A stretch of DNA of 41,064 nucleotides from a virus, in IMG/VR virus record IMGVR_UViG_3300046012_000660, one strand, 5' to 3'. The notes beneath the pieces are model-generated. The model had not been told where the DNA came from. It saw only the letters and a program-made list of their open reading frames with translations, and ran no database searches. Below, in pieces: positions 79 to 36,195 of the stretch (its first letter is position 1; every line of letters begins with the position of its first letter). A program made the translations under genes and the position numbers.

Positions 79-452
79 CGACATTAACAGCGGGATCAGG
101 TATATCCATAACAAATGGTGCAGGATCAATCACCATTGCCTCTACGGCTGTGGCATTAAATTATACGAATGTAAATCATGCCGCATCTCCTTATACAGTA
201 TTAACAACAGATCAATATATTTCTGTCGACTGTTCCGCAGGAACTGTGCAACTTAATTTCCCAAATTCTCCAACTTCAAAAGAATTTTGGATAGTTAAAG
301 ACAGAACAGGAAATGCGTCGACTAATAATATCACTCTTACAACAGCAGGAGCAACAGTCACTTTTGATGGGCTTACTACTTATACCATGAACTCAAATTA
401 TCAAGCCATAAATCTACTTGCAAACGCCACTCCAACTTATGAGGTCTATTAA
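1..452 (+). CDS. Tail fibre protein, C-terminal part; same gene as 40548-41064 across the circular junction
   Basis: The open frame is continuous with the end of the window. It has a Thr/Gly/Ser/Asn-rich fibre composition and shares ...VGAGTATITNLGVATNGQLPIGSTGADPVL... with the fibre paralogues at 1749 and 38476. The GTG at 24 in the ORF track is internal, not the start. Confidence 0.75.
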   Translation, partial: ATITNLGVATNGQLPIGSTGADPVLATLTAGSGISITNGAGSITIASTAVALNYTNVNHAASPYTVLTTDQYISVDCSAGTVQLNFPNSPTSKEFWIVKDRTGNASTNNITLTTAGATVTFDGLTTYTMNSNYQAINLLANATPTYEVY

Positions 453-1747
453 TGGGATACAGAGATTATAGCTCGGCTAAAGGTCATATAGTTGATTCCA
501 CAGGTCATGGTGATTTTACAACCATTGTTTCTGCTATAACCGCAGCCTCATCTGGACAAACGATTTTTATTCGACCAGGAACTTATACAGAGAACCCAGC
601 TTTAAAAGCTGGAGTTAATTTATCAGCATACGATAGTGATGGTCTTGTCATTGGAATTGCTGGAAACACAGGAACTGTCGTAATTAATGGGAAAGTCTCA
701 ATGACAACTGCCGGAACATCCGTTATATCAGGTGTTACATTTCAAACAAATTCAGATTATGCTCTTTCTGTAACAGGATCAGCTGCAACGAATGTTTTAT
801 TAACAAATTGTACCATTTCTGGTTCTAATCATAATTTAATTGAATTTACCAGCTCAAGTTCTAGTGCGAATATATTTATTCAATATTCTAATACATATAT
901 CAGCAATGCTACATATAATTTGTACGATATGACTTCTCCTGGAAGCCTATCTTTTTATTATTGTTCATCTTCCCAAGCAGGAACAGTTGCATCAAACAAT
1001 AGCGCAGGGGTCTTGACTCAAGAATATGTTAATGGAAACACTGTCATGACTACCAGTGGAACAGGAATAGTCACGATGATTCAATCTGATATCGATACTG
1101 GTAACACAACAACTTTAACCACATCTGGGACTGGTCAAACAATAATTAGAAATTCAGCTTTAACTAGTGGAACATCCTCATGTCTTTCAATTGGATCTGG
1201 AACTACAGGGGACGTTCGATCATCAGTAGTTTCTTCTACAAACACGAATGCTATAGCTGGAGCAGGAACAATAAATTATTCGGCATTAAATTTTACAAAC
1301 ACTAGTGCAAAAATTAGCACAACAACACAAACAGGTGGGCTTTTAAAAGGAGGATTAACACAAAACCCTAACGCTGGATTCATTGGTGAACATATTCGAG
1401 CTAATGCAACCGTCTCAATTACTACAGCAACAGCAGGGAACGTTACTTCCATCAGCTTAACTGCGGGAATCTGGGATGTTTCAGGTATTGCTAACTATGC
1501 TTTCACGACCTCTGCAACATCTACAACAACTGGATTGAGTATTACTAGTGCTACTTTTACAGGGTCGCAGGGTGACGATTATGTTAATTTTATTAATACA
1601 TTTTCCACGAATGCACAGATTTCCGTAAGCATTCCCTCTAAAAGAGTTATGGTAACTTCGACAACAACCTTTTATTTAGTTCAACAAGCAACTTTTATTG
1701 GAACAGCAACTTGCTTAGGAAGAATTTCAGCAACCAGAGTAGGATAA
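452..1747 (+). CDS. Tailspike with a right-handed beta-helix (pectate-lyase-like) domain; possible polysaccharide depolymerase
   Basis: The N-terminal signature GDFTTIVSAITAASSGQTIFIRPGTYTE is typical of pectin-lyase-fold tailspikes. The rest is a long Thr/Ser/Asn/Gly-rich repeat body. The ATG overlaps the upstream stop (TAATG). Confidence 0.65.
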   Translation: MGYRDYSSAKGHIVDSTGHGDFTTIVSAITAASSGQTIFIRPGTYTENPALKAGVNLSAYDSDGLVIGIAGNTGTVVINGKVSMTTAGTSVISGVTFQTNSDYALSVTGSAATNVLLTNCTISGSNHNLIEFTSSSSSANIFIQYSNTYISNATYNLYDMTSPGSLSFYYCSSSQAGTVASNNSAGVLTQEYVNGNTVMTTSGTGIVTMIQSDIDTGNTTTLTTSGTGQTIIRNSALTSGTSSCLSIGSGTTGDVRSSVVSSTNTNAIAGAGTINYSALNFTNTSAKISTTTQTGGLLKGGLTQNPNAGFIGEHIRANATVSITTATAGNVTSISLTAGIWDVSGIANYAFTTSATSTTTGLSITSATFTGSQGDDYVNFINTFSTNAQISVSIPSKRVMVTSTTTFYLVQQATFIGTATCLGRISATRVG

Positions 1748-1748
1748 T

Positions 1749-2960
1749 ATGGTAAATAATAGCACCACTCCAACAAGCTTTGATGCCTTAGCAGTAGGAC
1801 GTTCCTCAACGAATCCTTTCATCACAGTTTTTTCTCCACGCAATCCTACTAGTAATGATGTTAACTATCCTATCCAGCAACGCTGGTACAATCACATAAA
1901 TGAAACAGAATATATTCTTACAGCCTTTAGCGTTGTTAATGAAACAAAAACCGCTGTTTGGCAGCCCATCAATGCTTCACAATTTGCAGCCACTGAAACT
2001 TTGACTGGAAATAGCGGTGGCCCTATTGCAGTTGATATGAACAACAATATCAATGTCATAGGTGATGGAACGACCATAAACATCGTCGGGAATCCAGGAA
2101 CTAACACCTTGACTGCGTCTGTTGTAACAGGTTCAGTAATTACGGAAACATTAACTGGAAATAGCGGTGGTGCTGTTTCACCAACAGCTGGCAATATCAA
2201 TACGCTCGGCATAGGATCAATCACCATCGTTGGGAATCCTGGTACAAGCGCCTTAACTACTCAGCTTACAGGGTTAACAAATCACAATGTATTAGTCGGA
2301 GCCGGAACAACCACTATTACAAAAATTGCACCATCAGCGACTAGTGGAGTTCCTTTAATTTCTCAAGGTGCAGCTGCCGATCCCCTATTTGGTACGGCTG
2401 TGGTCGCAGGAGGAGGAACAGGCGATACAAGTTTTACAGCATATGCTCCCATTGTTGGAGGAACAACAACAACAGGGCCACTTCAATCGGCCCCGACTGG
2501 TCAATCTACTAGCGGATTTGTTTTTACTAGTACAGGGTCTGGATCGCTTCCTACTTTTCAATCAATTTATACTCAAGGAACCTTTACTCCCACCTTGCAA
2601 TTTGGAGGAGGAAGTACAGGGATCACGTATTTAAGCCGAACCGGACTTTATACAGTGATTGGCAATATGCTATTTTTTGAAGCTCAGTTTACTTTAACTA
2701 GCAAAGGAAGTAGCACAGGTGTCGCTCAAGTTATAAATCTTCCATTTACTGCCAATTTTGGAACGAGCGCTTTTTTATCTATCACTCAATTTACCCTTCC
2801 AAATACAACAACGCAAATTTGGGGACAGATCAATACTGGAGGAACAAGTTTACTTTGCATTTATGCTGATTCTGCAACAGGAGCGTCTGTACAAATGTCT
2901 AATTCAAATTTCATGAATAACACCGCTATTTTATTCCAAGGATTTTACTTTTTATCATAA
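1749..2960 (+). CDS. Tail fibre protein, paralogue of 38476 and 40548
   Basis: Contains two copies of TETLTGNSGG...NIN..G.G.I.IVGNPGT..LT. Its N-terminus is similar to 38476 (NYP..+RW.N.I...EY.LT). The C-terminus is knob-like (GTFTPTLQFGGGSTGITY...LPFTA). Confidence 0.75.
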   Translation: MVNNSTTPTSFDALAVGRSSTNPFITVFSPRNPTSNDVNYPIQQRWYNHINETEYILTAFSVVNETKTAVWQPINASQFAATETLTGNSGGPIAVDMNNNINVIGDGTTINIVGNPGTNTLTASVVTGSVITETLTGNSGGAVSPTAGNINTLGIGSITIVGNPGTSALTTQLTGLTNHNVLVGAGTTTITKIAPSATSGVPLISQGAAADPLFGTAVVAGGGTGDTSFTAYAPIVGGTTTTGPLQSAPTGQSTSGFVFTSTGSGSLPTFQSIYTQGTFTPTLQFGGGSTGITYLSRTGLYTVIGNMLFFEAQFTLTSKGSSTGVAQVINLPFTANFGTSAFLSITQFTLPNTTTQIWGQINTGGTSLLCIYADSATGASVQMSNSNFMNNTAILFQGFYFLS

Positions 2961-7556: not shown

Positions 7557-7832
7557 ATGACTCTTAACGAATGGCTTAAAGAAAACAATATGAGCATGAA
7601 CGCTCTAGCTAAACTCTGCGGTCTATCGACAACAACTATTTTGAACATAACATTAGACAAGCCCGTTGTTTTTAGGACTATCAGAAAATTAATGCAGCTC
7701 ACCAAAAACTTCCGCATACCGATAACACCTGAGATGTTTCCAAGGGTTTATCTTCATGGTAAGGATGAGATAATCACTGGGTCTATGGCCTATGCAATTG
7801 AGATTAGGAAATATCTAAATCGCAAGAAATAG
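7557..7832 (+). CDS. XRE/Cro-type helix-turn-helix regulator (91 aa)
   Basis: The N-terminus MTLNEWLKENNMSMNALAKLCGLSTTTILNI has an HTH pattern. It is the first gene rightward of the switch region. Confidence 0.65.
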   Translation: MTLNEWLKENNMSMNALAKLCGLSTTTILNITLDKPVVFRTIRKLMQLTKNFRIPITPEMFPRVYLHGKDEIITGSMAYAIEIRKYLNRKK

Positions 7833-9512: not shown

Positions 9513-9644
9513 ATGACCCTTGTCCAAGCCAAGATCAAAATTAAACGATGGTGCAAAGCTGTCTTTCTAAGAAGTTCAGTTTGCCCATTCTGCAAGGAAA
9601 CGTTTAACCAAAGAAGCCATCCAAGATTTAAGAGGAAGAGATAG
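9513..9644 (+). CDS. Small basic Cys-containing protein (43 aa), absent from the ORF track
   Basis: AGGAG SD 7 nt upstream. Translation: MTLVQAKIKIKRWCKAVFLRSSVCPFCKETFNQRSHPRFKRKR. Confidence 0.45.
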   Translation: MTLVQAKIKIKRWCKAVFLRSSVCPFCKETFNQRSHPRFKRKR

Positions 9645-9806
9645 ATGGACAAAAAGATGAGAAAGCAAGTCGGGAAACCTCTTAAAAAGGCTGAAAAGCT
9701 AGTGAATAAGGCCGAGAAGGCTAACGCAAAGCTTGCCAACTATGACGAAAAGGTCAGAGATCCTATGATTGCTAAATACAAGAAGATGAAGGGCCGTTGT
9801 AAATAA
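9645..9806 (+). CDS. Small Lys-rich protein (53 aa), absent from the ORF track
   Basis: The ATG follows the previous TAG directly. Translation: MDKKMRKQVGKPLKKAEKLVNKAEKANAKLANYDEKVRDPMIAKYKKMKGRCK. Confidence 0.4.
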   Translation: MDKKMRKQVGKPLKKAEKLVNKAEKANAKLANYDEKVRDPMIAKYKKMKGRCK

Positions 9807-9862
9807 TCTACTCTGCTGCTATGGATTAATTTTAGAGACTAACTATCAACTAGGAGGTTGTT

Positions 9863-11122
9863 ATGGTTTCTAAAATAAGTATAAGTCTAATAACACTGTT
9901 CATGAGTTCTTTATTAGCTCATGATAACTATAGCCAGATTTCAATAAATGTTAACCCCTTTGAGTCAGCAGCCTCTTCTGTCAAGTTTGATCATCAATCA
10001 CATTTGTACGCTCCTAATGGGGATGTTCTTCTTCTACATTTGTCTCATTCTCCTCACCTTAAATTCTTCAAGAATGAAGTAGGATTGGGATATCGAAAGA
10101 TCTTCCCTGCTTTTGGGATGGGTCTAAATTTCTATTATATGAACATGACGAAGCCTGGTGTTTTCATTCACCAGCTAAGCCCTGGCATTGAGGTGTTTTA
10201 TAACAACTTTCAGTTTTCTTATAATACCTATCTACCCACTCAAATGAAGAAAAGCTTTAAGAAAGGAACGCTATATCACAGTCTGGTTTCTGAGTTGGGA
10301 ATTAACTATAAACCAACAAAAGACCTAATGCTGGGGCTATTGCCATTCTTTGACCATTCCAAAAAAGAGTGGGGATTGAATTCCAAGGTGACTTACACGA
10401 TCAAAGATAAGTTTGAGTTTGCCGTGTCTCCCTATCTAAAAAAATCAGGGAACGGATGCCTATTTTCTTTTGGCATTAACTTTGGTGGTGAGAAAACTAG
10501 AGCCAATCAGTCGATTCATAGATCCAATGATTTTTCTTATCTCATCGAGAAGAGGATTCCTAAGATCTATACGCTAGAGCTTAAGCCTGCTTATGCGCCA
10601 GCTCCCATAATTATGCCGGCTATACAACCTGTTATTTTACCTCCAATAGAGCAGGAAGAGGAGTCTTTGCCTAAAGAAACAATTGAAGAAAAAAGCAATA
10701 GTGCAAAACCTGTTGTAGAGCCTATAAAAATTGAAGTTCCTCCAGAAAAACCGTATTCGTGGTGGGACAATATCCCCTTTTTTAACTACAAAGGGATAGG
10801 AATAGCTCAAGAGTCTTTGCAACAACCGATCAGAATAGTAGAGCCGTTAAGCGAATCTAGCTCTTTTGAGATGTTATCCTCTGCTTCTAGAGAGTCTTCT
10901 TCGAGTAGCTGGGAATATATGAACTCAGGCTCATCGGACTTGAGTTCTTCAAGTGGAGATGAGTTTTATGAGGTACCATTTCCTTCAAATAAGTTTTATG
11001 AGCCGGAAACTTGGGAGCCATACCAACCTCCAGAGCATCATGCTTCGTCATCATTTAATGGTGGTAATGAACTGCACATCTGGGAAGATTATGTCGATGC
11101 TAAGGATGTCCTTAATCTTTAA
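9863..11122 (+). CDS. Inverse-autotransporter (intimin/invasin beta-domain)-like outer-membrane protein with a disordered C-terminal region
   Basis: Signal peptide MVSKISISLITLFMSSLLA. NEVGLGYRKIFPAFGMGLNFYYMNM...GIEVFYNNFQFSYNTYLP matches the remembered IAT beta-barrel pattern GLG.R....G.N.FYD....G.E....L..S.N.Y.P. The C-terminal 170 aa are Pro/Glu/Ser-rich. Confidence 0.55.
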   Translation: MVSKISISLITLFMSSLLAHDNYSQISINVNPFESAASSVKFDHQSHLYAPNGDVLLLHLSHSPHLKFFKNEVGLGYRKIFPAFGMGLNFYYMNMTKPGVFIHQLSPGIEVFYNNFQFSYNTYLPTQMKKSFKKGTLYHSLVSELGINYKPTKDLMLGLLPFFDHSKKEWGLNSKVTYTIKDKFEFAVSPYLKKSGNGCLFSFGINFGGEKTRANQSIHRSNDFSYLIEKRIPKIYTLELKPAYAPAPIIMPAIQPVILPPIEQEEESLPKETIEEKSNSAKPVVEPIKIEVPPEKPYSWWDNIPFFNYKGIGIAQESLQQPIRIVEPLSESSSFEMLSSASRESSSSSWEYMNSGSSDLSSSSGDEFYEVPFPSNKFYEPETWEPYQPPEHHASSSFNGGNELHIWEDYVDAKDVLNL

Positions 11123-11174: not shown

Positions 11175-12293
11175 ATGATAATCCACGGCGACTGCTTAGA
11201 TGAGATGAAGAAGATGGCGGATAACTCCATTTCAGGGATTGTAACAGATCCGCCTTATGGGTTATCATTCATGGGAAAAGGATGGGATCATGCAGTACCA
11301 GGAATTGAATATTGGAGAGAATGTTATAGAGTCCTCAAACCAGGTGGACATTTGCTTGCTATGGGAGGAACTAGAACCTTTCATCGTCAGACTTGTGCAA
11401 TCGAGGACTCAGGGTTTGAAATACGCGATTGTCTTATGTGGCTCTATGGATCAGGATTCCCTAAAAGTCACAATAACTTCGGATTCGATGGATACGGCAC
11501 AGCTCTTAAACCTGCTTATGAGCCTATTACCTTATCCATGAAACCCCTTGATGGCACATTCAAGCAGAACGCTGAGAAATGGGGTCAGGCTGGGATTAAT
11601 ATTGATGGGTGTAGGATTCCAACAACAGATAAATATTCTTATCCCAATGGAGCTGGCGGAAATGGCTTTCATGGGGGCGTAGGACGCGAACCAGATGGCA
11701 CTCGCACTGAGGATGTTCGAAGCAGTCCCAAAGGCCGCTGGCCAGCCAATGTCATATTCGATGAGGAAGCGGCGAAGATGCTCGATGAACAGAGTGGGGA
11801 GAGTAAAAGCCCTTCATTAACATCTAGAGGGAAAAGACAATCCAATTATGGGATGGGGGTGCAGTTCGATATTCCTTGTCATAATGATTCCGGCGGATCT
11901 TCCCGCTTCTTCTACTGCGCTAAGACATCATCAAAGGAAAGAAATGAGGGGTTGGAGGGTTTGCCGGATAAAGTTGGCGGGGGGATGTGCTCAACTGTTT
12001 CTGGTGATACGAGATCAGGTCACATAACGATTCAAAAGAACAACCACCCCACCGTCAAACCTCTCAAGCTCATGCGCTATCTCATCACTCTCATCATGCC
12101 ACCAAAAGACGGCATATTACTCGACCCATTCGCCGGCTCTGGGTCTACCATCATAGCAGCTCATCAATTAGGTGTTAAAGCCATTGGTATCGAAAAACAG
12201 AAAGAATATGTTGAGATTGCCAATAAAAGACTAGAATACTATATGAACACAAAAGAAGAGAAAGATTTAGATCTCTTTAGTACAGCGGTTTAG
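11175..12293 (+). CDS. Beta-class N6-adenine/N4-cytosine DNA methyltransferase (orphan)
   Basis: Motif IV DPPYG is near the N-terminus and motif I FAGSGST is near the C-terminus. GRWPANVIFD, RFFYCAK and NHPTVKPLKLMRYL are typical of phage orphan methyltransferases. Confidence 0.9.
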   Translation: MIIHGDCLDEMKKMADNSISGIVTDPPYGLSFMGKGWDHAVPGIEYWRECYRVLKPGGHLLAMGGTRTFHRQTCAIEDSGFEIRDCLMWLYGSGFPKSHNNFGFDGYGTALKPAYEPITLSMKPLDGTFKQNAEKWGQAGINIDGCRIPTTDKYSYPNGAGGNGFHGGVGREPDGTRTEDVRSSPKGRWPANVIFDEEAAKMLDEQSGESKSPSLTSRGKRQSNYGMGVQFDIPCHNDSGGSSRFFYCAKTSSKERNEGLEGLPDKVGGGMCSTVSGDTRSGHITIQKNNHPTVKPLKLMRYLITLIMPPKDGILLDPFAGSGSTIIAAHQLGVKAIGIEKQKEYVEIANKRLEYYMNTKEEKDLDLFSTAV

Positions 12294-12299
12294 AATTAT

Positions 12300-12758
12300 A
12301 TGCCACGCAAGCCTAAAGAGATAAAGAGACCTACAGGAAGACAGCCTGCCGAAATAGACTGGAAGCTGGTAGATGATTATCTAGAAGCTGGATGTGCGGG
12401 GACTGATATTGCAGCGCAATTGGGCGTTTATCCTGATACTCTTTATGAAAGATGTCAGAAAGAAAAAGGAACTACTTTCACGGCTTATTCACAACAAAAG
12501 AAACAATCTGGAGATTATTTATTAAAGAAAGCCCAATTTGATAAAGCAATTGGAAGAACTGAGCATGGGGATAATACTCTTTTAATATGGCTTGGTAAAG
12601 TACGGTTAGATCAAAAAGAAACCACCACAATCGCAGTATCGGCTGAGACAGAAAAAAACTACCGATCATTAATGGAAGATCTTGCTGAAATGCAAGCAAG
12701 TAGGCAGAATGTATCCTCAGTAAAACTAGAGGAAATAGATGAACATTCAGAATCTTGA
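12300..12758 (+). CDS. Small terminase subunit-like HTH protein
   Basis: The N-terminus ...GRQPAEIDWKLVDDYLEAGCAGTDIAAQLGVYPDTLYERC..., followed by ...LIWLGKVRL..., resembles TerS proteins. No other TerS candidate lies next to TerL. Confidence 0.45.
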   Translation: MPRKPKEIKRPTGRQPAEIDWKLVDDYLEAGCAGTDIAAQLGVYPDTLYERCQKEKGTTFTAYSQQKKQSGDYLLKKAQFDKAIGRTEHGDNTLLIWLGKVRLDQKETTTIAVSAETEKNYRSLMEDLAEMQASRQNVSSVKLEEIDEHSES

Positions 12759-13110
12759 GCTATGGATGATAGCGATATTCCAACTGCTAATGGTTGTTTG
12801 CACATGCGGTCTTGTGCGTGTGACAAAATCCCTTGGAAATGACTCAATCAATCACATCGAAAACCTCCATAATGACATTGAAAGACTACGGGTTGATCTA
12901 GATGGGAAATTCGACATTGTTAACCAATATCTTGCCGAGAATCATGAGAACATCCAGGACATTAAAGAGCGCCTCACATTCTTAGAGGCATACAATTCAT
13001 TCTCAATGGCCATACGTCCCTATGAGCCTGTTCAACCCAATCCCCGATCTGAAGCGGCGCGCGAGATGTGGAAGAGAAGGAAGCAGAAGAGCCTGGACAA
13101 GAAGGAATGA
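12739..13110 (+). CDS. Single-pass membrane protein with a coiled-coil (123 aa)
   Basis: TM helix LWMIAIFQLLMVVCTCGLV, then a heptad-like region. Confidence 0.55.
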   Translation: MNIQNLELWMIAIFQLLMVVCTCGLVRVTKSLGNDSINHIENLHNDIERLRVDLDGKFDIVNQYLAENHENIQDIKERLTFLEAYNSFSMAIRPYEPVQPNPRSEAAREMWKRRKQKSLDKKE

Positions 13111-13280
13111 CTCTCATTAAATGCGATCTCGTGGGATGCGGGAAGATGTCGGACTCGCCCAAAAGCTGGGGATATGCGATTGTAGAGGGGGAAAAGATAT
13201 GGCTTTGCCCCGATTGCGTAAAAGAGAATTGCCAGACAATTGACATTCCAGACAAGAGTATTTATATTTCACCTAGATAA
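13107..13280 (+). CDS. Mini zinc-ribbon protein (57 aa), paralogue of 23658-23801
   Basis: ATGA coupling. Contains C..C...W.YA.V....IWLCPDCVKENC. Confidence 0.5.
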   Translation: MTLIKCDLVGCGKMSDSPKSWGYAIVEGEKIWLCPDCVKENCQTIDIPDKSIYISPR

Positions 13281-14122: not shown

Positions 14123-14218
14123 TCGATGTATCTGAAAACGGGCTGTAGCACGTCGGGAACTCGTTCCCTCGCCCACGGATCAATATATCACAAACGTTTA
14201 AGTCCAATAGGATTTGAA

Positions 14219-15187
14219 ATGTCAATTACGACAACTGGCAATTTAGGCCCATTGATCTTGCAAAGCTTAGCTCCTGCAATGCTCTATGTTCCTACGCCAA
14301 CAATGAACTATATTACAATTTGCGACAAAGTTTCGATGCCCTCCAATGGTGGGACGACTTGTCGCTTTATGAGACCTCGCGCATTACAACCGCCCACCGT
14401 ACAGTTGGGAAACTCTGGAATTGACCCTCCAGCACAAGTGCCACAAAGAGACATCATTGATGCTCAAATGGCGTTCTTTGGAACAGGATGTATCATCAAC
14501 GAACAAGTTATTCTCCAAGACCAAGAAGGCGTACTAGCCTGGGTATCTGAGAGATTGGCTGTTGCGATGAGACAGGCTGAAGACCTTATCCTCCGCGACT
14601 ACATAATTTCTGCTGCGTCGGAAATTAATGCAGGCGGCGGAAATAACGGCGACAATCCTACGAATTTAGGACTGTCAGATTTCAGCTTAGTTGCGACTAC
14701 ACTTGACACCAACAATGCCTATAAATTTATGGCGGGTATTCTTGGCGAGGATCGCTATGGATCTGGCCCGATTCGTTCATCTTATTTCATGCTAAGTTCT
14801 ACAGAACTTCAGTCTGATTTTGATGCGCTCGTTGGCTCTGGCGTGATCAACAACTGGAATTATCCTAATAATTCCTCAGCTCTTGCAAGCGAATGGGGTA
14901 GCGTGTTTAACGTACGAATCCTTACTAGCTCTGAAGCTCCTGTTGCTCGTGGTGCCTCTGCTAACGGAAACGACGTGTACTATAATACCGTCGCTGGAAA
15001 GCAGGCAGTAACTCACATCAATCAAGATGGATTTTCCATGAATTTGATTTATCGTGATCCTTACTATTCTGGCATTCTCGCTCAGAACGCGACACTCGCT
15101 GTTAAATTTGCTCAAGCGCAAGCTCTGACGCAAGACACTGCGATTCGTAATCTGCTCTGTACACGCTTAACCAATTTGGGGGTGTAA
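14219..15187 (+). CDS. Major capsid protein (HK97 fold, T7/N4-gp56-like)
   Basis: The internal ATG at 14219 has an upstream AGGA. The size is about 323 aa. ...RFMRPRAL..P.V.LGNSGIDPP....RDIIDAQMAFFG...I.......QDQEGVLAWVSERLAVAMRQAEDLILRDYI fits the capsid family pattern as I remember it. It is the first gene of the structural block. Confidence 0.7.
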   Translation: MSITTTGNLGPLILQSLAPAMLYVPTPTMNYITICDKVSMPSNGGTTCRFMRPRALQPPTVQLGNSGIDPPAQVPQRDIIDAQMAFFGTGCIINEQVILQDQEGVLAWVSERLAVAMRQAEDLILRDYIISAASEINAGGGNNGDNPTNLGLSDFSLVATTLDTNNAYKFMAGILGEDRYGSGPIRSSYFMLSSTELQSDFDALVGSGVINNWNYPNNSSALASEWGSVFNVRILTSSEAPVARGASANGNDVYYNTVAGKQAVTHINQDGFSMNLIYRDPYYSGILAQNATLAVKFAQAQALTQDTAIRNLLCTRLTNLGV

Positions 15188-17545: not shown

Positions 17546-17730
17546 TGGCTAAAGAAAGCAAGAAAGCTCAGAGTAAGATTGGGGCGGTAATGCGCGAGTT
17601 CAAATCAGGGAATCTGCACTCAGGATCTAAGAAAGGTCCCGTGGTTGTTAATAAGAAACAAGGAATCGCTATTGCTCTTTCAGAAGCTCGTAAGAAAGGT
17701 ATGAAAGTGCCAGGAAAGAAGCCTAAATGA
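17545..17730 (+). CDS. Small basic protein resembling the bacterial family I recall as DUF6496
   Basis: KIGAVMREFKSGNLHSGSKKGPVVVNKKQGIAIALSEARKKG. Confidence 0.55.
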   Translation: MAKESKKAQSKIGAVMREFKSGNLHSGSKKGPVVVNKKQGIAIALSEARKKGMKVPGKKPK

Positions 17731-18959
17731 ACCTTCTCTCGGATATAATAACCTACGTCCGGCGGCTGATCAAATCTCCGTCGGATGCTGTTATCACAGA
17801 CAACCTGATTATAGACTATATTAATAGATTCTGGATCATGGATGTCGATGCTCGGATGCAGCTTTTCGATCTTAAAACAGTCTATACTTTTCAGACAGTT
17901 CCTGGTGTAGACCAATATAATATGCCACTTTATGATGTTCAAGTTGAAGGGGCAACGCCCACAACAAACATCAATTTCTATCCTGTCTATCAAGGGTTTT
18001 TACCATATGCAAGAATAGCTGGAGTTTCTGTCGGGTTTTATACTCAGAGAGCTGAATTCTTCTCTTATTGGGAAAACTACATCCAACCCTATGAAGTCGT
18101 GGGGATTGGAGATGGTGGCGCAAACTACACGCTTCAAATCCCTTTTGCTCCAGCATCACAGCAAAGTGTAAATGTAATTCCTAGTGGGATATTGAGAGGC
18201 CACGTTGATATGAGTGGTATTATTGCTACTGGGCAGAATGTCGATCCGCCGGTTGCTACAAATCTAAACTTGGCTATTCCCTACACAAGTATCTACCCAG
18301 CTGTGTATTTCACAACAGTCGACTCATCAGGTCAATCACGTGTTGTACAAGATTCAGGTCAGTTTCTAGAAGGCAATGTCAATTATGGCTTAATGATGAC
18401 CAACGGAACAGCTCCATCTGGATATCAGGAATTAAATGGAAGCCAGCAGTCTGTTGCTCAAGTCTATACAACAGCGCTCAATACCATCAATTACAATACA
18501 GGAATAGCCAACGTCACCTTTACTGATCCGGTTAGCGGAAGCCCTGTAAATATTCCATCGGGGCAGCAAATTAATGCCCAGTGTTATTACTTCAATCCTG
18601 GTATTCCAAGAGCTATTTTGTTCAACAACAACACACTTACTTTAAGAACAGTCCCCGATACACAATATTTGGTTGAATTAGAGGCCTATTTGTCTCCTGC
18701 CGCTTTCTTAAATGGAAGTACAGGAATTCAATTTTCTTATATGAGCGAGTATATCGCACGAGGCGCTGCTAGAAAGATTCTGTCTGATACCGGCGATACC
18801 GAACAATTTAACTTCTACGAGCCTCTTTTTAGAGAACAAGAGCTTCTTGTTTGGAAAAGAAGCCAAAGACAGTTTACATCAACTAGGACCCAGACGATCT
18901 ATAGTCAAGGAACTGGTCAAGGCAATTCAAATAGCGTTTACGGAGTAGGTACACCATGA
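17727..18959 (+). CDS. Virion protein, possible head-tail adaptor or tail tubular A-like (410 aa)
   Basis: ATGA coupling. It lies upstream of the nozzle-sized gene. The assignment rests on position only. Confidence 0.35.
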   Translation: MNLLSDIITYVRRLIKSPSDAVITDNLIIDYINRFWIMDVDARMQLFDLKTVYTFQTVPGVDQYNMPLYDVQVEGATPTTNINFYPVYQGFLPYARIAGVSVGFYTQRAEFFSYWENYIQPYEVVGIGDGGANYTLQIPFAPASQQSVNVIPSGILRGHVDMSGIIATGQNVDPPVATNLNLAIPYTSIYPAVYFTTVDSSGQSRVVQDSGQFLEGNVNYGLMMTNGTAPSGYQELNGSQQSVAQVYTTALNTINYNTGIANVTFTDPVSGSPVNIPSGQQINAQCYYFNPGIPRAILFNNNTLTLRTVPDTQYLVELEAYLSPAAFLNGSTGIQFSYMSEYIARGAARKILSDTGDTEQFNFYEPLFREQELLVWKRSQRQFTSTRTQTIYSQGTGQGNSNSVYGVGTP

Positions 18960-22686: not shown

Positions 22687-22878
22687 ATGGATTGGACACA
22701 GGTTTTGACTGTTTTTGCGATTATGGCTACGAATTTGATTACCGTGATAACGCTATATATTCATTCGGATAATAAGATGAATGTTTTAATGAAAACGATT
22801 TCTGATGAAATGAGGGACTTTCATGGAAGACTATGTGCTATTGAAGAGAGAAGAAACAAGATTTTGGAGAAAGGATGA
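22687..22878 (+). CDS. Single-pass membrane protein with a coiled-coil; holin-like candidate (63 aa)
   Basis: AGGAG SD. TM helix VLTVFAIMATNLITVITLYI, followed by ...EMRDFHGRLCAIEER. Confidence 0.35.
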   Translation: MDWTQVLTVFAIMATNLITVITLYIHSDNKMNVLMKTISDEMRDFHGRLCAIEERRNKILEKG

Positions 22879-23135
22879 CATCTAATCACCATGCAGTAGT
22901 GCGAACCCATCATCACACAACGTTTTGTGGTTGTTTGGAATCTAAAAAGGACTTTCCTCAAAAGAAAAATCCTTTGATGATTAAGACGCCACCTCCACTA
23001 AACCGATCCGATGCGACGTTGACGGATAAAGATATTGTAGACCTTTCAAAGTTTTTAAATGCGGATAGCTCTGAAGATGAGATCTTCAAAATGGAAGAGG
23101 TTCTGGCTATAGCGAATATTTATGCGGAGCATTAG
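22875..23135 (+). CDS. Hypothetical His-rich protein (86 aa)
   Basis: ORF with ATGA coupling. Confidence 0.5.
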   Translation: MTSNHHAVVRTHHHTTFCGCLESKKDFPQKKNPLMIKTPPPLNRSDATLTDKDIVDLSKFLNADSSEDEIFKMEEVLAIANIYAEH

Positions 23136-23141
23136 AGATAA

Positions 23142-23360
23142 ATGAAATTAAATGATGTTATCAATACTTCCATTGATGTCTTCCCTTGGAAGTTTGTCAA
23201 AAAAATCACCTTTCTTAAGCGAGAAGTTATTATAGAGTTTATTTCAGGGAATGGAATGACGGCAAAACATTCGGATAGAAAAAAATATAATGAATTTCTG
23301 GCAGAAGCCAAAAAGAATCTTCAGCCAGACCAGATTGTAATAGGGGATATTGATGAATGA
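23142..23360 (+). CDS. Hypothetical protein (72 aa)
   Basis: ORF only. Confidence 0.5.
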   Translation: MKLNDVINTSIDVFPWKFVKKITFLKREVIIEFISGNGMTAKHSDRKKYNEFLAEAKKNLQPDQIVIGDIDE

Positions 23361-23661
23361 CTGCCAGAAAAGAGGCCATCACAAGCTTTTTATCACCTGT
23401 GAAGAATGTGGACAGGTTATCAATGAGGCGACGTTAAAGGAGAAGGGCGGGTGGATCGATGTGAAGGATAGATTGCCGGAGATAAAACAAAGAGGGTCTA
23501 CACAAAACCCTTGCTCTGATGAAGTTCTTTGCTCCGATGGGAAAAGATGCTCAATTGGAATTAGATGGATCTGTGGGACGACAGAATATTTTCTTCCTCA
23601 CGATAGAGAAAATATGGATAAAATTACCCACTGGATGCCATTACCGGAACCACCGAAATGA
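23350..23661 (+). CDS. DUF551-like phage protein with an N-terminal CxxC
   Basis: WIDVKDRLPE...ITHWMPLPEPP is the DUF551 signature as I remember it. Confidence 0.65.
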   Translation: MMNDCQKRGHHKLFITCEECGQVINEATLKEKGGWIDVKDRLPEIKQRGSTQNPCSDEVLCSDGKRCSIGIRWICGTTEYFLPHDRENMDKITHWMPLPEPPK

Positions 23662-23801
23662 GCACAATCCAATGCTATTGGTGTTATAAAAAATCTGAAT
23701 ACAAAATGGGATGGGCTTTAGTTAATCTGGATAATAATGCGGTTTATCTATGCCCGACCTGCATGAAGGAACATTGTAAAATTTTGGAGCCAGCGAAATG
23801 A
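23658..23801 (+). CDS. Mini zinc-ribbon protein (47 aa), paralogue of 13107-13280, absent from the ORF track
   Basis: ATGA coupling. Translation: MSTIQCYWCYKKSEYKMGWALVNLDNNAVYLCPTCMKEHCKILEPAK. Confidence 0.5.
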   Translation: MSTIQCYWCYKKSEYKMGWALVNLDNNAVYLCPTCMKEHCKILEPAK

Positions 23802-23926
23802 AATTCGCCACCAGGTTCATAATCTTAGTGTTCCTTTTCATCATCACATATGTTCTACTCTTTGATCTGTGGTGCAGGCTTAGAACGATTCAAGATGGAC
23901 AAATTCAAATATTGGAGAGATTGTGA
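23798..23926 (+). CDS. Small membrane protein (42 aa), absent from the ORF track
   Basis: ATGA coupling. Translation: MKFATRFIILVFLFIITYVLLFDLWCRLRTIQDGQIQILERL. Confidence 0.45.
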   Translation: MKFATRFIILVFLFIITYVLLFDLWCRLRTIQDGQIQILERL

Positions 23927-23934
23927 AAGAATTC

Positions 23935-24078
23935 ATGTCTTTGGTATATCTCTTCTTAGCTGTTTTTATTTTGGCCTATGGAGCTATTAGAATAGATCAA
24001 GCGATGGGCTGGGAAGCTAAAAGAGTAAAAATAACATTATATATAGGAGTTTATGAAAAATATACATGGATCATCTAG
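23935..24078 (+). CDS. Small membrane protein (47 aa; alternative GTG at 23923), absent from the ORF track
   Basis: Translation: MSLVYLFLAVFILAYGAIRIDQAMGWEAKRVKITLYIGVYEKYTWII. Confidence 0.4.
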   Translation: MSLVYLFLAVFILAYGAIRIDQAMGWEAKRVKITLYIGVYEKYTWII

Positions 24079-24430
24079 TCAGTTATTCGCATATCTTAGG
24101 GTCATCTCATTTGCCATTGTCCTGGTTATCATGGTGTTTGCAGCTATAAAGGGTTCGGCTCTCGGTTTTGCTCCTCATACGCCTGATATCGCATTGGATG
24201 CTGAAATACAGTATCATCGCCAGCAAACAGAGAAGCATAGAGATCAAAAGGCTAGCGAAAAGGTCGATAAATATAAACAGCATAAAGAAGACAAGAAGAA
24301 AGCGCCTCCTGAGCAGAAAAAGCCTAAAGAGAAAAAACACGGGCATAAAACAAAGCCCTCAAAACCGCCCAAGCCTTCAAGACAAGAGAAGAAAGACGCC
24401 AGAAAACATAAGGCGAGGACTTCAAGTTGA
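24053..24430 (+). CDS. Membrane-anchored protein with a Lys/Pro-rich basic tail (125 aa)
   Basis: AGGAG SD. TM helix VISFAIVLVIMVFAAI. The tail reads ...KKAPPEQKKPKEKKHGHKTKPSKPPKPSRQEKKDARKHKAR. Confidence 0.6.
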   Translation: MKNIHGSSSQLFAYLRVISFAIVLVIMVFAAIKGSALGFAPHTPDIALDAEIQYHRQQTEKHRDQKASEKVDKYKQHKEDKKKAPPEQKKPKEKKHGHKTKPSKPPKPSRQEKKDARKHKARTSS

Positions 24431-25083
24431 TTATTGACTGCATCTCCGACCTCCATGGTCACTATCCAGAACTAGAAGGTGGAGACTTGCTCATTGTGGC
24501 GGGGGATTTGACGCGAACCGATGACTACCAGGAATGGAAGGGATTTTTTACCTGGGTCAAGAGTCTGTGTTATAAAAAAAAGATCGTCATCTGCGGAAAC
24601 CACGATCGATATATGGAGTATAATCCAGGTTTTATGCAAGAGAGGTTCGACGAATTTACCTACCTCTGCGACTCCGGAACCGAATTCGAAGGTCTCAAAA
24701 TCTGGGGCTCTCCTTGGACTAAGCGATTTGAAGGAATGAATCCTAATTGCATGGCTTTTACGGTTGATACGGAAGAGGAGCTGGCTCAGAAGTGGGCGAT
24801 GATTCCAGAAAATATTGATATTTTGGTTACTCATTCCCCTTCTGAAGGAGTTTTAGATGAAATCAACGAAGTGACTAAATGGGGAACAAAGCACTTCAAC
24901 GTCGGAAGCTCAAGCCTTGTTATTCCTATGATTAAAAGTGGATGTAAGTTGCATGTTTTCGGTCACATTCATGAATCCTATGGGAAATTTTATAATGCAA
25001 TTAACGGAATAACCTATATCAACGCCTCCCACGTCAATGAAAAATACGAACCAGTCAATAAACCCATAAGAGTTATCCTGTGA
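24427..25083 (+). CDS. Calcineurin-like metallophosphoesterase
   Basis: Motifs DLHG, GDL, GNHD and GHIH appear in the canonical order. Confidence 0.85.
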   Translation: MIIDCISDLHGHYPELEGGDLLIVAGDLTRTDDYQEWKGFFTWVKSLCYKKKIVICGNHDRYMEYNPGFMQERFDEFTYLCDSGTEFEGLKIWGSPWTKRFEGMNPNCMAFTVDTEEELAQKWAMIPENIDILVTHSPSEGVLDEINEVTKWGTKHFNVGSSSLVIPMIKSGCKLHVFGHIHESYGKFYNAINGITYINASHVNEKYEPVNKPIRVIL

Positions 25084-25331
25084 AGTATATCATTCCCATC
25101 TTGATGTTCTTTGCATCTATCCTTTCCGCAGAAACGTTGCCTACTAAAACATTCAAATGGTACAAAGTCGAAGCCCTAGGTCATTCCTATATCGTATTCT
25201 ACGAAGATGTTACCAGTAATAACCTTCAAGTAAAACATGATCCAAGCTGCCAATGTCGTAAATTCACTGAAGAGCAAATAGCTAAAGTCATTGCCGAAGT
25301 TTTAAGGCTGCAAAGAAATCAAAAGGCTTGA
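25080..25331 (+). CDS. Small secreted protein (83 aa)
   Basis: GTGA coupling. Signal peptide MKYIIPILMFFASILSA. Confidence 0.5.
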   Translation: MKYIIPILMFFASILSAETLPTKTFKWYKVEALGHSYIVFYEDVTSNNLQVKHDPSCQCRKFTEEQIAKVIAEVLRLQRNQKA

Positions 25332-25913: not shown

Positions 25914-25986
25914 TGGGAATACTTGGATTTGAACCAAGGCACTACAAATTATGAGTTTGTTGCTCTACCAACTGAGCTATATTCCC
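25914..25986 (-). tRNA. tRNA with anticodon CAT (elongator Met, or Ile2 if lysidine-modified); no encoded CCA
   Basis: Hand-folded cloverleaf: GGGAATA / TA / GCTC-AGTTGGTA-GAGC / A / ACAAA-CTCATAA-TTTGT / AGTGC / CTTGG-TTCAAAT-CCAAG / TATTCCC plus discriminator A. G1-C72 is paired and the anticodon stem is AT-rich, which argues against an initiator. Confidence 0.9.
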
Positions 25987-35922: not shown

Positions 35923-36195
35923 CTAAATCGCTAACAACATTTGATTGGGATTAGTCCTTCTAATTCTCCAGTGAAACTTTAAATGCTGCGATGGTGTAAG
36001 CATTAAAAGATTAGAAATTTCGTTGTTAGATGGGTCATCATCTCTGTGATGAATATCCATTCCTGATGGGATGTCTCCAAAATGGATCATCCAGACCCAA
36101 CGATGAGCATATAATTTGGGATCGGTTGTACAAACCCAATAACCATCTTTTCTTTCGTAGAACTTCTTTCCAAAATAGATTTGATGAGATTTCAT
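35923..36195 (-). CDS. HNH endonuclease (90 aa)
   Basis: ...DIHHRDDDPSNNEISNLLMLTPSQHLKFH... Confidence 0.85.
   Translation of the reverse strand: MKSHQIYFGKKFYERKDGYWVCTTDPKLYAHRWVWMIHFGDIPSGMDIHHRDDDPSNNEISNLLMLTPSQHLKFHWRIRRTNPNQMLLAI

What the first reader, a model, noticed from the sequence alone, without database searches (positions are those of the whole stretch)
9863..11122. Phage-encoded inverse-autotransporter-like outer-membrane protein with an acidic Ser-rich disordered passenger
The protein has a clear signal peptide. This is followed by about 190 aa whose core (NEVGLGYRKIFPAFGMGLNFYYMNMTKPGVFIHQLSPGIEVFYNNFQFSYNTYLPTQMKK) aligns position by position with the intimin/invasin beta-barrel consensus as I remember it (LGLGQRHF...MLGYNAFYDYD...RLGLGAEAWRDYLKLSANGYFRLSGWK). 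In inverse autotransporters the C-terminal part is exported. Here that part is not Ig/BIG repeats but a Pro/Glu/Ser-rich low-complexity tail. The tail carries aromatic-acidic short motifs (SSFEML, SSWEYM, DEFYEV, TWEPY, IWEDYVD). The gene stands alone between the replication block and the methyltransferase, as a moron would. A phage remodelling the host surface with such a protein could affect superinfection exclusion, adhesion, or interaction with a eukaryotic host of the bacterium. To my knowledge this has not been described.
Basis: partly seen in the sequence, partly recalled or inferred. Interest (0 to 1): 0.7.

Follow-up and report, generated by a model that had tools for sequence, protein, structure and literature searches.

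The report
Phage-encoded intimin-type outer-membrane barrel
A tailed phage encodes an exported outer-membrane barrel of the intimin/invasin (inverse autotransporter) type, with a selected, disordered tail in place of a folded adhesin; it is a core gene of a whole, undescribed phage group whose nearest cellular relatives are in environmental chlamydiae.

Summary
ORF 9863-11122 (+), 419 aa, has a strong ribosome-binding site and a signal peptide. Its ~190-aa beta domain is an inverse-autotransporter (IAT) barrel:
- Pfam IAT_beta is borderline for this protein (21.2-23.7 bits; cutoff 22.3), but 50 of 66 family members hit it.
- A family profile finds only invasin and intimin in the PDB.
- A confident AlphaFold model (pLDDT 94-99 over the barrel) matches invasin/intimin beta-domains best (E 1e-9, TM 0.7).

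The 184-aa tail is disordered but under purifying selection (dN/dS ~0.12). It has a Pro/Glu-rich spacer, a conserved aromatic block (SWWDNIPFF) and an acidic Ser-rich extension.

The "moron" reading fails. The gene is a syntenic hallmark of a deeply diverged clade of ~40-kb podovirus-like phages: all 10 database contexts examined and all 14 viral-contig hits are phage. The neighbouring methyltransferase is the insertion.

The cellular relatives found (22-25% identity) were almost all in Chlamydiota-type genomes. There the barrel carries ~400-aa beta-helix passengers.

Surface display of the tail is inferred from homology and was not tested. Function is unknown. My best guess is an envelope or surface role during infection; a spanin-like lysis role is the main rival. 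I class it as a new variant of a known kind.

The parts
9852..9857 (+). Shine-Dalgarno AGGAGG, 5 nt upstream of the ATG at 9863
   Evidence: Read directly from the sequence. It supports Met1 as the start rather than Met14.
9863..9919 (+). Signal peptide, residues 1-19 (MVSKISISLITLFMSSLLA, probable cleavage before HDN)
   Evidence: Sequence shows Lys4, a 15-residue hydrophobic core and Ala at -1. It is helical in the AF2 model. An N-terminal hydrophobic segment is present across the family. No signal-peptide predictor was available.
9920..10480 (+). Inverse-autotransporter-type outer-membrane beta-barrel, residues 20-206
   Evidence: Pfam IAT_beta. PDB profile search hits invasin and intimin only. 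AF2 pLDDT is 94-99. The DSSP pattern is compatible with 12 strands if 97-113 and 116-130 (mature numbering) are read as one long hairpin. Foldseek top hits are 4E1T, 4E1S and 5G26. dN/dS is 0.14.
10481..10567 (+). Post-barrel linker, residues 207-235 (…HRSNDFSYLIEK…), candidate pore-threading segment
   Evidence: R220, N222, F224 and Y226 are invariant among close relatives, and RxxxFxY appears in the family consensus. AF2 pLDDT is 86-97, with a short strand at full-length residues 226-230. It aligns only weakly to the cellular IAT linkers. Threading itself was not verified.
10568..10750 (+). Pro/Glu-rich spacer, residues 236-296
   Evidence: Composition and 47% identity to P0002 with dN/dS 0.16. 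Family-wide, the spacer has a median of 49 aa, 20% Pro and 18% Asp+Glu. AF2 pLDDT is 58-71.
10751..10807 (+). Conserved aromatic block, residues 297-315 (YSWWDNIPFFNYKGIGIAQ)
   Evidence: 89% identical to P0002 despite saturated synonymous sites. A W/F cluster is present in 51 of 59 unique family tails, against 20% of shuffled tails. There is a local pLDDT rise to 77 and a short helix.
10808..11119 (+). Acidic Ser-rich extension, residues 316-419, with acid-flanked aromatic motifs (SSFEML, SSWEYM, DEFYEV, TWEPY, IWEDYVD)
   Evidence: Net charge -15, 23% Ser, 63% identical to P0002, dN/dS 0.15. Acid-flanked aromatics are enriched (p about 0.007). It is shared only with P0002. Analogous acidic-Trp ends occur in other long-tailed members.
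9645..9806 (+). 53-aa highly basic ORF immediately upstream; syntenic companion of the gene
   Evidence: Homologues lie directly upstream of the IAT-like gene in L002, L003, L066 and L071. Similar tiny basic ORFs occur in L060, L063 and L078.
11175..12293 (+). DNA methyltransferase; context only, the real insertion at this locus
   Evidence: PHROG 67, E=5.9e-67. It is absent between the IAT-like gene and the 152-aa gene in L070 and L001. GC is 0.46-0.50 against 0.39 in the flanks.
12300..13110 (+). 152-aa HTH protein and overlapping 123-aa TM-helix + coiled-coil protein; syntenic downstream neighbours in this subgroup
   Evidence: tblastn finds them in L001, L002, L066, L068-L071, L073 and L076. 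TM segment at residues 5-29. This is a possible i-spanin- or holin-like partner, but it is not conserved clade-wide.

Best explanation
The gene encodes a Sec-exported outer-membrane protein. Its mature N-terminal ~190 residues form a minimal, 12-stranded inverse-autotransporter (type Ve, intimin/invasin-family) beta-barrel, followed by a conserved linker. The C-terminal 184 residues form an intrinsically disordered but selected tail with three parts: a Pro/Glu-rich spacer, a conserved Trp/Phe-rich block, and an acidic Ser-rich extension.

Shown:
- Barrel identity, by sequence, profile and structure.
- Tail architecture and its purifying selection.
- Status as a syntenic hallmark gene of a deeply diverged clade of ~40-kb podovirus-like phages.
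- The cellular relatives found, almost all in Chlamydiota-type genomes, are IATs with beta-helix passengers.

Inferred:
- After BAM-dependent insertion into the host outer membrane, the linker threads the pore as in intimin.
- The tail is then displayed on the infected cell's surface as a flexible ~15-nm stalk ending in an aromatic, membrane- or partner-binding motif.
- Because the gene is universal in the clade, lies beside the head genes, and is the fastest-diverging shared gene, it probably acts at the host envelope during the infection cycle. Examples are masking or occupying surface sites (exclusion of other phages, protection of progeny from debris) or engaging an adjacent membrane.
- It is probably not a lysogenic-conversion extra.
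- The host is probably a chlamydia-like diderm (about 0.5).
For: - ORF, ribosome-binding site and signal peptide.
- IAT_beta is the only Pfam family, borderline for this protein (21.2/23.7 bits against 22.3) and hit by 50 of 66 relatives, best 4.4e-16.
- NCBIfam weak hits are exclusively IAT families.
- Profile against the PDB finds only invasin (9.2e-7) and intimin (0.012).
- AF2 with 61 sequences gives pLDDT 87.6 overall and 94-99 over the barrel.
- Foldseek top three are invasin/intimin beta-domains (E 1.5e-9 to 2.2e-8, TM 0.67-0.71); the next barrels start at 5.6e-6.
- Linker segment has pLDDT 86-97, with a short strand after a 19-residue non-regular stretch.
- Tail dN/dS is 0.12, and the WW block is 89% identical.
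- 51 of 59 tails carry a W/F cluster, against 20% of shuffles.
- Phage contexts: and 14 of 14 IMG/VR loci.
- Synteny and divergence (capsid 94% against IAT-like 34% in L070).
- Cellular relatives: 51 HMM-verified ORFs in 44 loci. All but three loci are labelled Chlamydiota or Verrucomicrobia, and the copies are mostly ~700 aa with beta-helix passengers.
- Heinz et al. 2016 (PMC4943183) describe chlamydial IAT_beta proteins with pectin-lyase-type passengers.
Against: - The Pfam match for this protein alone is borderline and covers only 60 of 279 model positions.
- The linker aligns only weakly with the cellular IAT linkers.
- A disordered tail gives no folding energy to drive secretion.
- No expression data exist, and no promoter or terminator signal is above chance.
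- Exclusion genes are usually accessory rather than clade-wide.
- Host assignment rests on 22-25% identical cellular relatives found with a motif-biased DNA pattern.
- No other phage gene links to chlamydiae.
Confidence: 0.6

Rival explanations
1. Spanin-like lysis device. The barrel only anchors the protein in the outer membrane and the tail stays in the periplasm. The ~50-aa Pro-rich spacer spans the periplasm. The Trp/Phe (and in some members Gly/Ala-rich) motif inserts into the inner membrane or binds an inner-membrane partner, so that the two membranes are fused or the outer membrane is ruptured at the end of infection.
For: - The gene is universal in the clade, as spanins are in phages of diderm hosts.
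- It diverges fast, as spanins do.
- The architecture resembles lambda Rz1 (a Pro-rich outer-membrane-anchored peptide) and T1 gp11 (established knowledge): outer-membrane anchor, then Pro-rich spacer (median 49 aa), then an aromatic membrane-active end, with the protein often terminating there.
- Some members have hydrophobic Gly/Ala-rich stretches after the motif.
- A TM-helix + coiled-coil protein lies two genes downstream in this subgroup.
- No canonical spanin or endolysin was recognised in the window.
Against: - Homology to IATs predicts the opposite topology.
- There is no lipobox.
- The window's motif is too polar to be a TM helix.
- The gene is not next to holin- or endolysin-like genes in most relatives; its upstream neighbours are soluble basic mini-proteins.
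- The TM/coiled-coil neighbour is confined to one subgroup.
- Candidate membrane proteins cluster elsewhere, at 22.7-25.3 kb.
- The 110-aa acidic extension has no place in this model.
Confidence: 0.2
2. Eukaryote-facing or vacuole-facing effector. The host bacterium lives inside a protist. The surface-displayed tail carries short linear motifs, or a membrane-active peptide, that act on the inclusion membrane or host-cell machinery, helping phage or infected bacteria to spread.
For: - The nearest cellular relatives are in obligate intracellular Chlamydiota.
- The tails are disordered, selected, and rich in acid-flanked aromatics.
- Independent long tails end in similar acidic-Trp motifs: GEWDDD, GEWNDD, and YDDPxLxxWVxL, which is repeated in P0021 and P0015.
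- These resemble W-acidic and LIR-type eukaryotic motifs (a resemblance from my own knowledge, not tested).
Against: - The host is unproven.
- Such short motifs arise easily by chance: the core [WFY]xx[LIVM] is not enriched, and the acid-flanked LIR-like count (4 against 0.7 expected, p=0.016) reflects only two distinct sites.
- A protein on the bacterial surface inside a vacuole does not reach the cytosol.
- Most family members lack the long extension.
Confidence: 0.08
3. Lysogenic-conversion moron. An accessory gene expressed from a prophage to change host adhesion or exclude other phages, like lambda Lom or Bor.
For: - It is an outer-membrane protein in a phage, as with Lom (PMC3594210).
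- A Cro/C1-type HTH gene is present at 7557-7832.
Against: - The gene is present and syntenic in every relative examined.
- There is no compositional anomaly.
- There is no promoter or terminator signal above chance.
- No integrase was found among the ORFs scanned.
- Independent assemblies give contigs of 37-41 kb, which look like free genomes.
Confidence: 0.07
4. Plain pore or porin. A barrel-only channel that alters host outer-membrane permeability during infection, with the tail merely a plug or regulator.
For: - Phage-encoded porin-like barrels exist among predicted viral structures.
- The next-best structural matches are the small porins KdgM and NanC.
Against: - IAT barrels are occluded by their linker (established knowledge of 4E1S/4E1T).
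- The tail is long, selected, and carries a conserved motif far from the barrel.
- Porins match with far weaker E-values than IAT barrels (5.6e-6 or worse, against about 1e-9 to 2e-8).
Confidence: 0.05

Closest known systems
Intimin / invasin beta-domains (type Ve inverse autotransporters; Pfam IAT_beta PF11924; PDB 4E1S, 4E1T)
   Same: N-terminal signal peptide, then the barrel, then the C-terminal portion. The G-x-G-x-R … G-x-N-x-F-Y-D … G-x-E … N-x-Y motif block is shared. They are the best structural matches (TM about 0.7) and the only PDB sequence hits.
   Different: About 14% identity. The loops are much shorter and there is no periplasmic LysM or N-terminal domain. There is no Ig-like or lectin passenger; a disordered tail takes its place. 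It is encoded by a phage.
Chlamydial inverse autotransporters with beta-helix (pectin-lyase-like) passengers (Heinz et al. 2016, PMC4943183)
   Same: They are the nearest cellular relatives. The phage-family HMM aligns over the whole barrel at 43-116 bits. Both are IAT_beta-positive with the barrel N-terminal.
   Different: They are 22-25% identical. The cellular forms are ~700 aa with ~400-aa folded beta-helix passengers, Cys-rich ends and longer loops, and they are multi-copy on chromosomes. The Pro-rich/WWxxFF tail was not seen in any genome hit.
'invasin_beta-only' proteins noted by Heinz et al. 2016
   Same: Barrel without a recognisable passenger domain.
   Different: This family has a conserved tail architecture under selection and is phage-specific. 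The function of the barrel-only group is itself unknown.
Lambda Lom (Ail/Lom family) and other phage-encoded outer-membrane barrels
   Same: A phage genome encodes a host-type outer-membrane beta-barrel. Generic examples exist among predicted viral structures.
   Different: Lom is a small barrel of the unrelated Ail/Lom family, an accessory moron expressed from prophage. This protein is a 12-strand IAT-type barrel, a clade-wide core gene, and has a long tail. The protein itself has no PHROG match, and no predicted viral structure comes close.
Spanins (lambda Rz/Rz1; unimolecular T1 gp11)
   Same: A phage protein anchored in the outer membrane, with a Pro-rich periplasm-length segment and a membrane-interacting C-terminus. 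Both are near-universal and fast-evolving.
   Different: Spanins are anchored by a lipid (lipobox Cys), not a barrel. No lipobox, TM helix or lysis-cassette context is seen here. The predicted topology differs.
T5 Llp / Cor-type receptor-masking proteins
   Same: Phage-encoded outer-membrane-targeted proteins that act at the cell surface during infection and can be conserved within a phage group.
   Different: Those are small lipoproteins with known receptor targets. No target is known here.

Membership tests
Inverse autotransporter (type Ve), Pfam IAT_beta | N-terminal Sec signal peptide | tested here: met
   AGGAGG lies 5 nt before the ATG. The sequence has Lys4, a 15-residue hydrophobic core and Ala-His at the likely cleavage site, conserved in relatives. 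This was judged by eye; no predictor was available.
Inverse autotransporter (type Ve), Pfam IAT_beta | Sequence match to the IAT_beta model at or above its curated cutoff | tested here: met
   Borderline for this protein: 21.2 bits for the full protein and 23.7 bits for residues 1-240, against a cutoff of 22.3, covering model positions 94-153 only. Firm at family level: 50 of 66 members, best E=4.4e-16, with no other Pfam family. Relatives score 18-44 bits.
Inverse autotransporter (type Ve), Pfam IAT_beta | 12-stranded beta-barrel fold closest to intimin/invasin | tested here: met
   AF2 pLDDT is 94-99 over the barrel. Foldseek ranks 1-3 are 4E1T, 4E1S and 5G26, with E 1.5e-9 to 2.2e-8 and TM 0.67-0.71. 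The exact strand count is inferred from the DSSP string only.
Inverse autotransporter (type Ve), Pfam IAT_beta | Inverted order: barrel N-terminal, exported part C-terminal | tested here: met
   Barrel is residues 20-206 and the tail residues 236-419. Cellular relatives have the barrel followed by a Beta_helix passenger.
Inverse autotransporter (type Ve), Pfam IAT_beta | Linker threads the barrel pore and the C-terminal part is surface-exposed | not testable with these tools
There is only indirect support: a high-confidence 19-residue non-regular segment followed by a short strand.
Inverse autotransporter (type Ve), Pfam IAT_beta | Folded passenger (Ig-like/Big, lectin or beta-helix domains) | tested here: not met
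   No domain was found in residues 236-419. pLDDT is <50 to 77. The composition is low-complexity.
Inverse autotransporter (type Ve), Pfam IAT_beta | Periplasmic N-terminal LysM or other domain (optional in the family) | tested here: not met
   The barrel starts directly after the signal peptide. There is no LysM hit.
Moron (accessory phage gene) | Sporadic presence among related phages | tested here: not met
   Present and syntenic in all 10 looked-up contexts and all 14 IMG/VR loci, down to 17-20% identity.
Moron (accessory phage gene) | Own promoter and terminator; deviant composition | tested here: not met
   Nine promoter-like sites against 6.7+-3.1 expected. The only terminator-like site is on the minus strand at 12349-12333, outside the gene. 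GC is 0.37-0.42, equal to the genome average. The promoter scan assumes sigma-70-type sites.
Spanin (o-spanin / u-spanin) | Outer-membrane lipoprotein signal (lipobox Cys) | tested here: not met
   There is no L-x-x-C lipobox at the end of the signal peptide.
Spanin (o-spanin / u-spanin) | Location in a lysis cassette with holin and endolysin | tested here: inconclusive
   No endolysin or holin was recognised anywhere. Upstream neighbours are soluble basic mini-proteins. A TM + coiled-coil gene lies two genes downstream, in this subgroup only.
Ail/Lom family (lambda Lom) | Match to the Ail/Lom family model | tested here: not met
   Pfam returned only IAT_beta. The best structural matches are IAT barrels followed by other outer-membrane barrels (KdgM, OMPLA).

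The most novel reading that the evidence does not exclude
A new kind of phage envelope device. An inverse-autotransporter barrel, kept as a hallmark gene by a whole clade of tailed phages of obligate intracellular (chlamydia-like) bacteria, presents a stalk-borne Trp/Phe-rich membrane-active peptide. In some phages it also presents acidic-Trp linear motifs. The device breaches or engages a membrane beyond the bacterial outer membrane (the inclusion/vacuole membrane) or the bacterial envelope itself. This would solve the release-and-spread problem of phages whose hosts live inside eukaryotic cells.
Probability: 0.12. Interest if true: 0.9.

Novelty: new variant of a known kind. Interest (0 to 1): 0.62.

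Why it matters
Inverse autotransporters are known as bacterial adhesins and invasins, and I found no report of one as a phage gene. Here an IAT-type barrel is the signature gene of a large, deeply diverged, uncultured phage clade. Its folded passenger is replaced by a short, selected, disordered tail ending in an aromatic motif. That suggests phages have repurposed a type V secretion scaffold for their own cycle.

If the host link to environmental chlamydiae is confirmed, these would be tailed phages of a phylum for which I know only small ssDNA phages (my own knowledge, not checked here). The protein would then be a handle on how such phages deal with the chlamydial envelope and the intracellular niche.

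It also offers a minimal natural test case: can an IAT barrel export an unstructured passenger?

Tried and rejected
- PHROGs, NCBIfam and single-sequence PDB searches of the protein gave nothing useful. A 4-sequence profile against the PDB also failed; only the 61-sequence profile worked.
- The first AF2 run, with 4 sequences, was uninformative (pLDDT 39).
- The search for related loci on genomes failed twice because the alignment was too diverse. It then found no close relative. A hand-made degenerate DNA pattern was needed; 12 of its 56 genome hits were chance matches in other phyla and failed the HMM.
- Cluster look-up gave no taxon names.
- Host evidence from other genes led nowhere. TerL is a generic PBSX type, the capsid's best known relative is 23% identical (a Pseudoalteromonas phage), there is no plasmid match, and no other window gene occurs in the fetched chlamydial loci.
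- The literature searches found no tailed chlamydial phage with such a gene and no phage-borne IAT.
- My first regex for the aromatic motif was too strict, and I replaced it with a W/F-density definition.
- The LIR-type motif count is not robust: only two distinct sites, and the core motif is not enriched.
- A lipobox hit at 13068-13280 was rejected: there is no hydrophobic signal sequence and the ORF looks like a Zn-ribbon protein.
- No curated C-terminal sorting-signal model matches the WWxxFFF ends.
- There are no tandem repeats in the tail.
- Model coordinates could not be accessed to check the linker path.
Full report
**The feature**

A perfect AGGAGG lies at 9852-9857, 5 nt before the ATG. 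The four closest relatives conserve the MVSKI start. Met1 is therefore the real start, and the signal peptide (MVSKISISLITLFMSSLLA, then HDN) is real. The public gene call for the identical protein starts at Met14 (P0001, 406 aa) and probably truncates it.

The window is a tailed phage. It carries a P22-type portal (33702-35852, minus strand), large terminase (36233-37519, minus strand), major capsid protein (14126-15187), SU10-type adaptor (17727-18959), RecT, an exonuclease, a methyltransferase and two HNH endonucleases.

**Is it an inverse-autotransporter barrel?**

Four independent lines of evidence say yes.

- *Pfam.* IAT_beta is the only family hit. It scores 21.2 bits for the whole protein and 23.7 bits for residues 1-240, against a curated cutoff of 22.3. 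It aligns residues 71-132 to model positions 94-153. That is borderline for this protein alone.
- *The family.* An exhaustive profile search of 1.84 billion representative proteins found 68 relatives. Of the 66 I scanned, 50 hit IAT_beta at E<=0.01 (best 4.4e-16), and no other Pfam family appeared. Sub-threshold NCBIfam hits of family members are all IAT families: SinH, intimin, YchO/YchP and YrIlm.
- *PDB sequences.* A 61-sequence profile searched against all PDB sequences returns only invasin (E=9.2e-7) and intimin (E=0.012).
- *Structure.* AlphaFold2 with 4 sequences was useless (pLDDT 39). With 61 sequences it gave pLDDT 87.6 overall and 94-99 over the first ~210 mature residues. Foldseek against the PDB ranks invasin 4E1T (E=1.5e-9, TM 0.71), intimin 4E1S (1.2e-8, 0.70) and intimin 5G26 first. 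The next hits are other small outer-membrane barrels, starting at 5.6e-6. No predicted viral structure comes close (best 1.8e-4, generic barrels).

The DSSP string fits 12 transmembrane strands if mature residues 97-113 and 116-130 are read as one long kinked hairpin. After the last strand comes a 19-residue non-regular segment with pLDDT 94-97, then a short strand at full-length residues 226-230. This is what a pore-threading linker would look like. I could not open the coordinates, so this remains an inference.

**The tail**

Residues 236-419 have no domain match. They are predicted disordered and contain 15% Ser, 14% Glu and 12% Pro, with net charge -20 and no DNA repeats.

The tail is not drifting. 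Against the one relative that shares the whole tail (P0002 in L001), dN/dS is about 0.12 for the tail and 0.14 for the barrel. Synonymous sites are saturated, so these ratios are rough. The block YSWWDNIPFFNYKGIGIAQ is 89% identical.

Across the family the common plan is barrel, then linker, then a spacer, then a Trp/Phe cluster:

- The spacer has a median of 49 aa, 20% Pro and 18% Asp+Glu.
- The Trp/Phe cluster is present in 51 of 59 unique tails, against 20% of shuffled tails.
- In 28 of those 51 the protein ends within 12 residues of the cluster, often with basic residues (e.g. KSWWDFFFRGLGK).

The window's further 104-aa acidic Ser-rich extension is a minority feature. Within it, 9 of 13 aromatics are flanked by Asp/Glu, against 4.3+-1.6 in shuffles. 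Other long-tailed members end in comparable acidic-Trp motifs such as GEWDDD and YDDPxLxxWVxL.

**It is not a moron**

Every short-tail family member whose context I looked up lies on a phage contig of the same type. These have a P22-type portal, a ~315-aa capsid, an SU10 adaptor, Gp53-like_C, Metallophos and often Cpn10; several contigs are 37-41 kb. This holds even for members only 17-20% identical to the query: P0002-4, P0017, P0021, P0030, P0046, P0053, P0055 and P0069.

The same degenerate DNA pattern scanned over IMG/VR gave 14 loci. All were verified by HMM at 158-272 bits, and all have short tails.

The gene always lies next to the portal or head genes and is preceded by tiny, very basic, soluble ORFs. 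One of these is window 9645-9806.

In the closest relative (L070) the capsid is 94% identical and the adaptor 79%, but the IAT-like protein only 34%. It is the fastest-diverging shared gene.

The methyltransferase at 11175-12293 is absent from L070 and L001 at this position and has higher GC (0.46-0.50), so it is the insertion. The IAT-like gene has genome-average GC and no promoter or terminator signal above chance. No integrase was found among the ORFs scanned.

**Cellular relatives and the likely host**

The DNA pattern scanned over one genome per species (185,579 species) gave 56 loci.

- 44 loci (51 ORFs) were verified by the family HMM at 43-116 bits. All but three are labelled Chlamydiota (Parachlamydiales, Rhabdochlamydiaceae, Simkaniaceae and others) or Verrucomicrobia(e); several of the latter come from ~2 Mb genomes.
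- The three exceptions are one Candidatus Odyssella locus and two unnamed bacteria.
- The 12 hits in other phyla failed the HMM.

The cellular proteins are mostly ~700 aa: the barrel followed by a ~400-aa beta-helix passenger. Pfam Beta_helix is found in L038. They are often in tandem copies. This matches the chlamydial IAT group with pectin-lyase-type passengers noted by Heinz et al. 2016 (PMC4943183). P0059 is of this type and lies among RecBC and MFS genes.

The phage profile aligns over their whole barrel, and they simply have longer loops. The linker aligns only weakly. Identity to the window barrel is 22-25%, so the split is old.

This makes a chlamydia-like diderm the most likely host, but it is an inference. 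The pattern was derived from the phage family, and no other phage gene gave a host signal.

**How it most likely works**

Shown: an exported protein with an IAT-type barrel and a selected disordered tail, conserved as a core gene of a phage clade.

Inferred from the family's established mechanism: Sec export, BAM-dependent insertion, the linker in the pore, and the tail displayed outside on a flexible stalk of roughly 15 nm ending in an aromatic motif.

Given clade-wide conservation, position beside the late or head genes, and rapid divergence, I favour a role at the host envelope or surface during the infection cycle. Examples are occupying or masking surface sites, or engaging an adjacent membrane. 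I do not favour lysogenic conversion.

The main rival keeps the tail in the periplasm as a barrel-anchored analogue of a spanin. The spacer length, the membrane-active-looking end and the universality fit this. The IAT homology, the absence of a lipobox or TM helix, the non-lysis neighbours and the acidic extension do not.

A eukaryote-facing reading of the acidic-aromatic motifs is not excluded, but it rests on short motifs and an unproven host.

**Comparison with what is known, and novelty**

The barrel is a divergent member of a known family. Barrel-only and chlamydial IATs are on record, and phage-encoded outer-membrane barrels are known (lambda Lom; generic examples).

Three things are new. 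The IAT-type barrel is in phages. It is a hallmark gene of a whole undescribed clade. Its passenger is replaced by a conserved Pro-rich/aromatic tail. The protein has no match in PHROGs, INPHARED phages or PLSDB plasmids, no close match among BFVD structures, and none in the papers searched. I rate it a new variant of a known kind.

Noticed in passing
whole window; L060-L084; L064-L077: The window belongs to a coherent, deeply diverged clade of ~37-41 kb podovirus-like phages (P22-type portal, SU10-type adaptor, Gp53-like_C, Metallophos, DUF551). The clade has no close relative among 50,697 GenBank phages: the best capsid hit is 23% identical, to a Pseudoalteromonas phage. If the host is chlamydial, these would be tailed phages of a phylum for which I know only microviruses.
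   Followed up: partly
window 11175-12293: The DNA methyltransferase has higher GC (0.46-0.50 against about 0.39). It is missing between the IAT-like gene and the 152-aa gene in close relatives (L070, L001). It is the moron-like insertion at this locus.
   Followed up: partly
window 12739-13110: A 123-aa protein with an N-terminal TM helix (residues 5-29), a coiled-coil-like region and a basic end. Its start overlaps the end of the 152-aa HTH gene. It is conserved only in the window's subgroup and is an i-spanin- or holin-like candidate.
   Followed up: partly
window 22687-25331: A cluster of small membrane or secreted proteins after the tail genes: 63 aa with TM + coiled coil, 51 aa with TM, 125 aa with TM + a very basic tail, and 83 aa with a signal-peptide-like start. 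This is a possible lysis cassette, and the 63-aa gene is conserved in L060 and L082. No endolysin was recognised anywhere in the window.
   Followed up: partly
L063 7046-7717 (-): A related phage encodes a second outer-membrane-barrel-like protein (223 aa, signal-like start, ends …HFGYRF) next to its portal gene.
   Followed up: no
L062 4745-5002; L063 532-798; L080 222-536: Several phages of the clade carry a Cpn10 (GroES) homologue.
   Followed up: no
window 9513-9806; L060 9249-9924; L063 7813-8752; L078 3709-4627: Runs of tiny (37-87 aa), extremely basic, soluble ORFs sit between the portal and the IAT-like gene (e.g. MAKKKALVKKVNVSVKKKKPAKKLK…). They are possibly internal or DNA-binding head proteins.
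   Followed up: no
window 25914-25986 (-), 25987-26694 (-), 35923-36195 (-): A tRNA-Met gene sits directly beside an HNH endonuclease gene. A second HNH endonuclease lies between the portal and terminase genes.
   Followed up: no
P0001 vs window 9863: The public gene call for the identical protein starts at Met14 (406 aa) and so lacks most of the signal peptide. The Shine-Dalgarno site and the homologues support Met1.
   Followed up: yes
tails of P0021 (L060), P0015/L076, P0020, P0036, P0040, P0052-P0054: Independent long tails end in similar acidic-Trp motifs. YDDPxLxxWVxL occurs twice in P0021. Others are GEWDDD, GEWNDD and DDDWVIV. P0021, P0003 and P0031 also have Gly/Ala-rich hydrophobic stretches after the WW motif.
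   Followed up: partly
L030 (Candidatus Odyssella MAG), 424-2592 (-): An alphaproteobacterial amoeba symbiont carries an IAT with a beta-helix passenger related to the chlamydial ones (52 bits to the phage-family HMM; IAT_beta 37.7 bits). This hints at exchange among protist symbionts.
   Followed up: no
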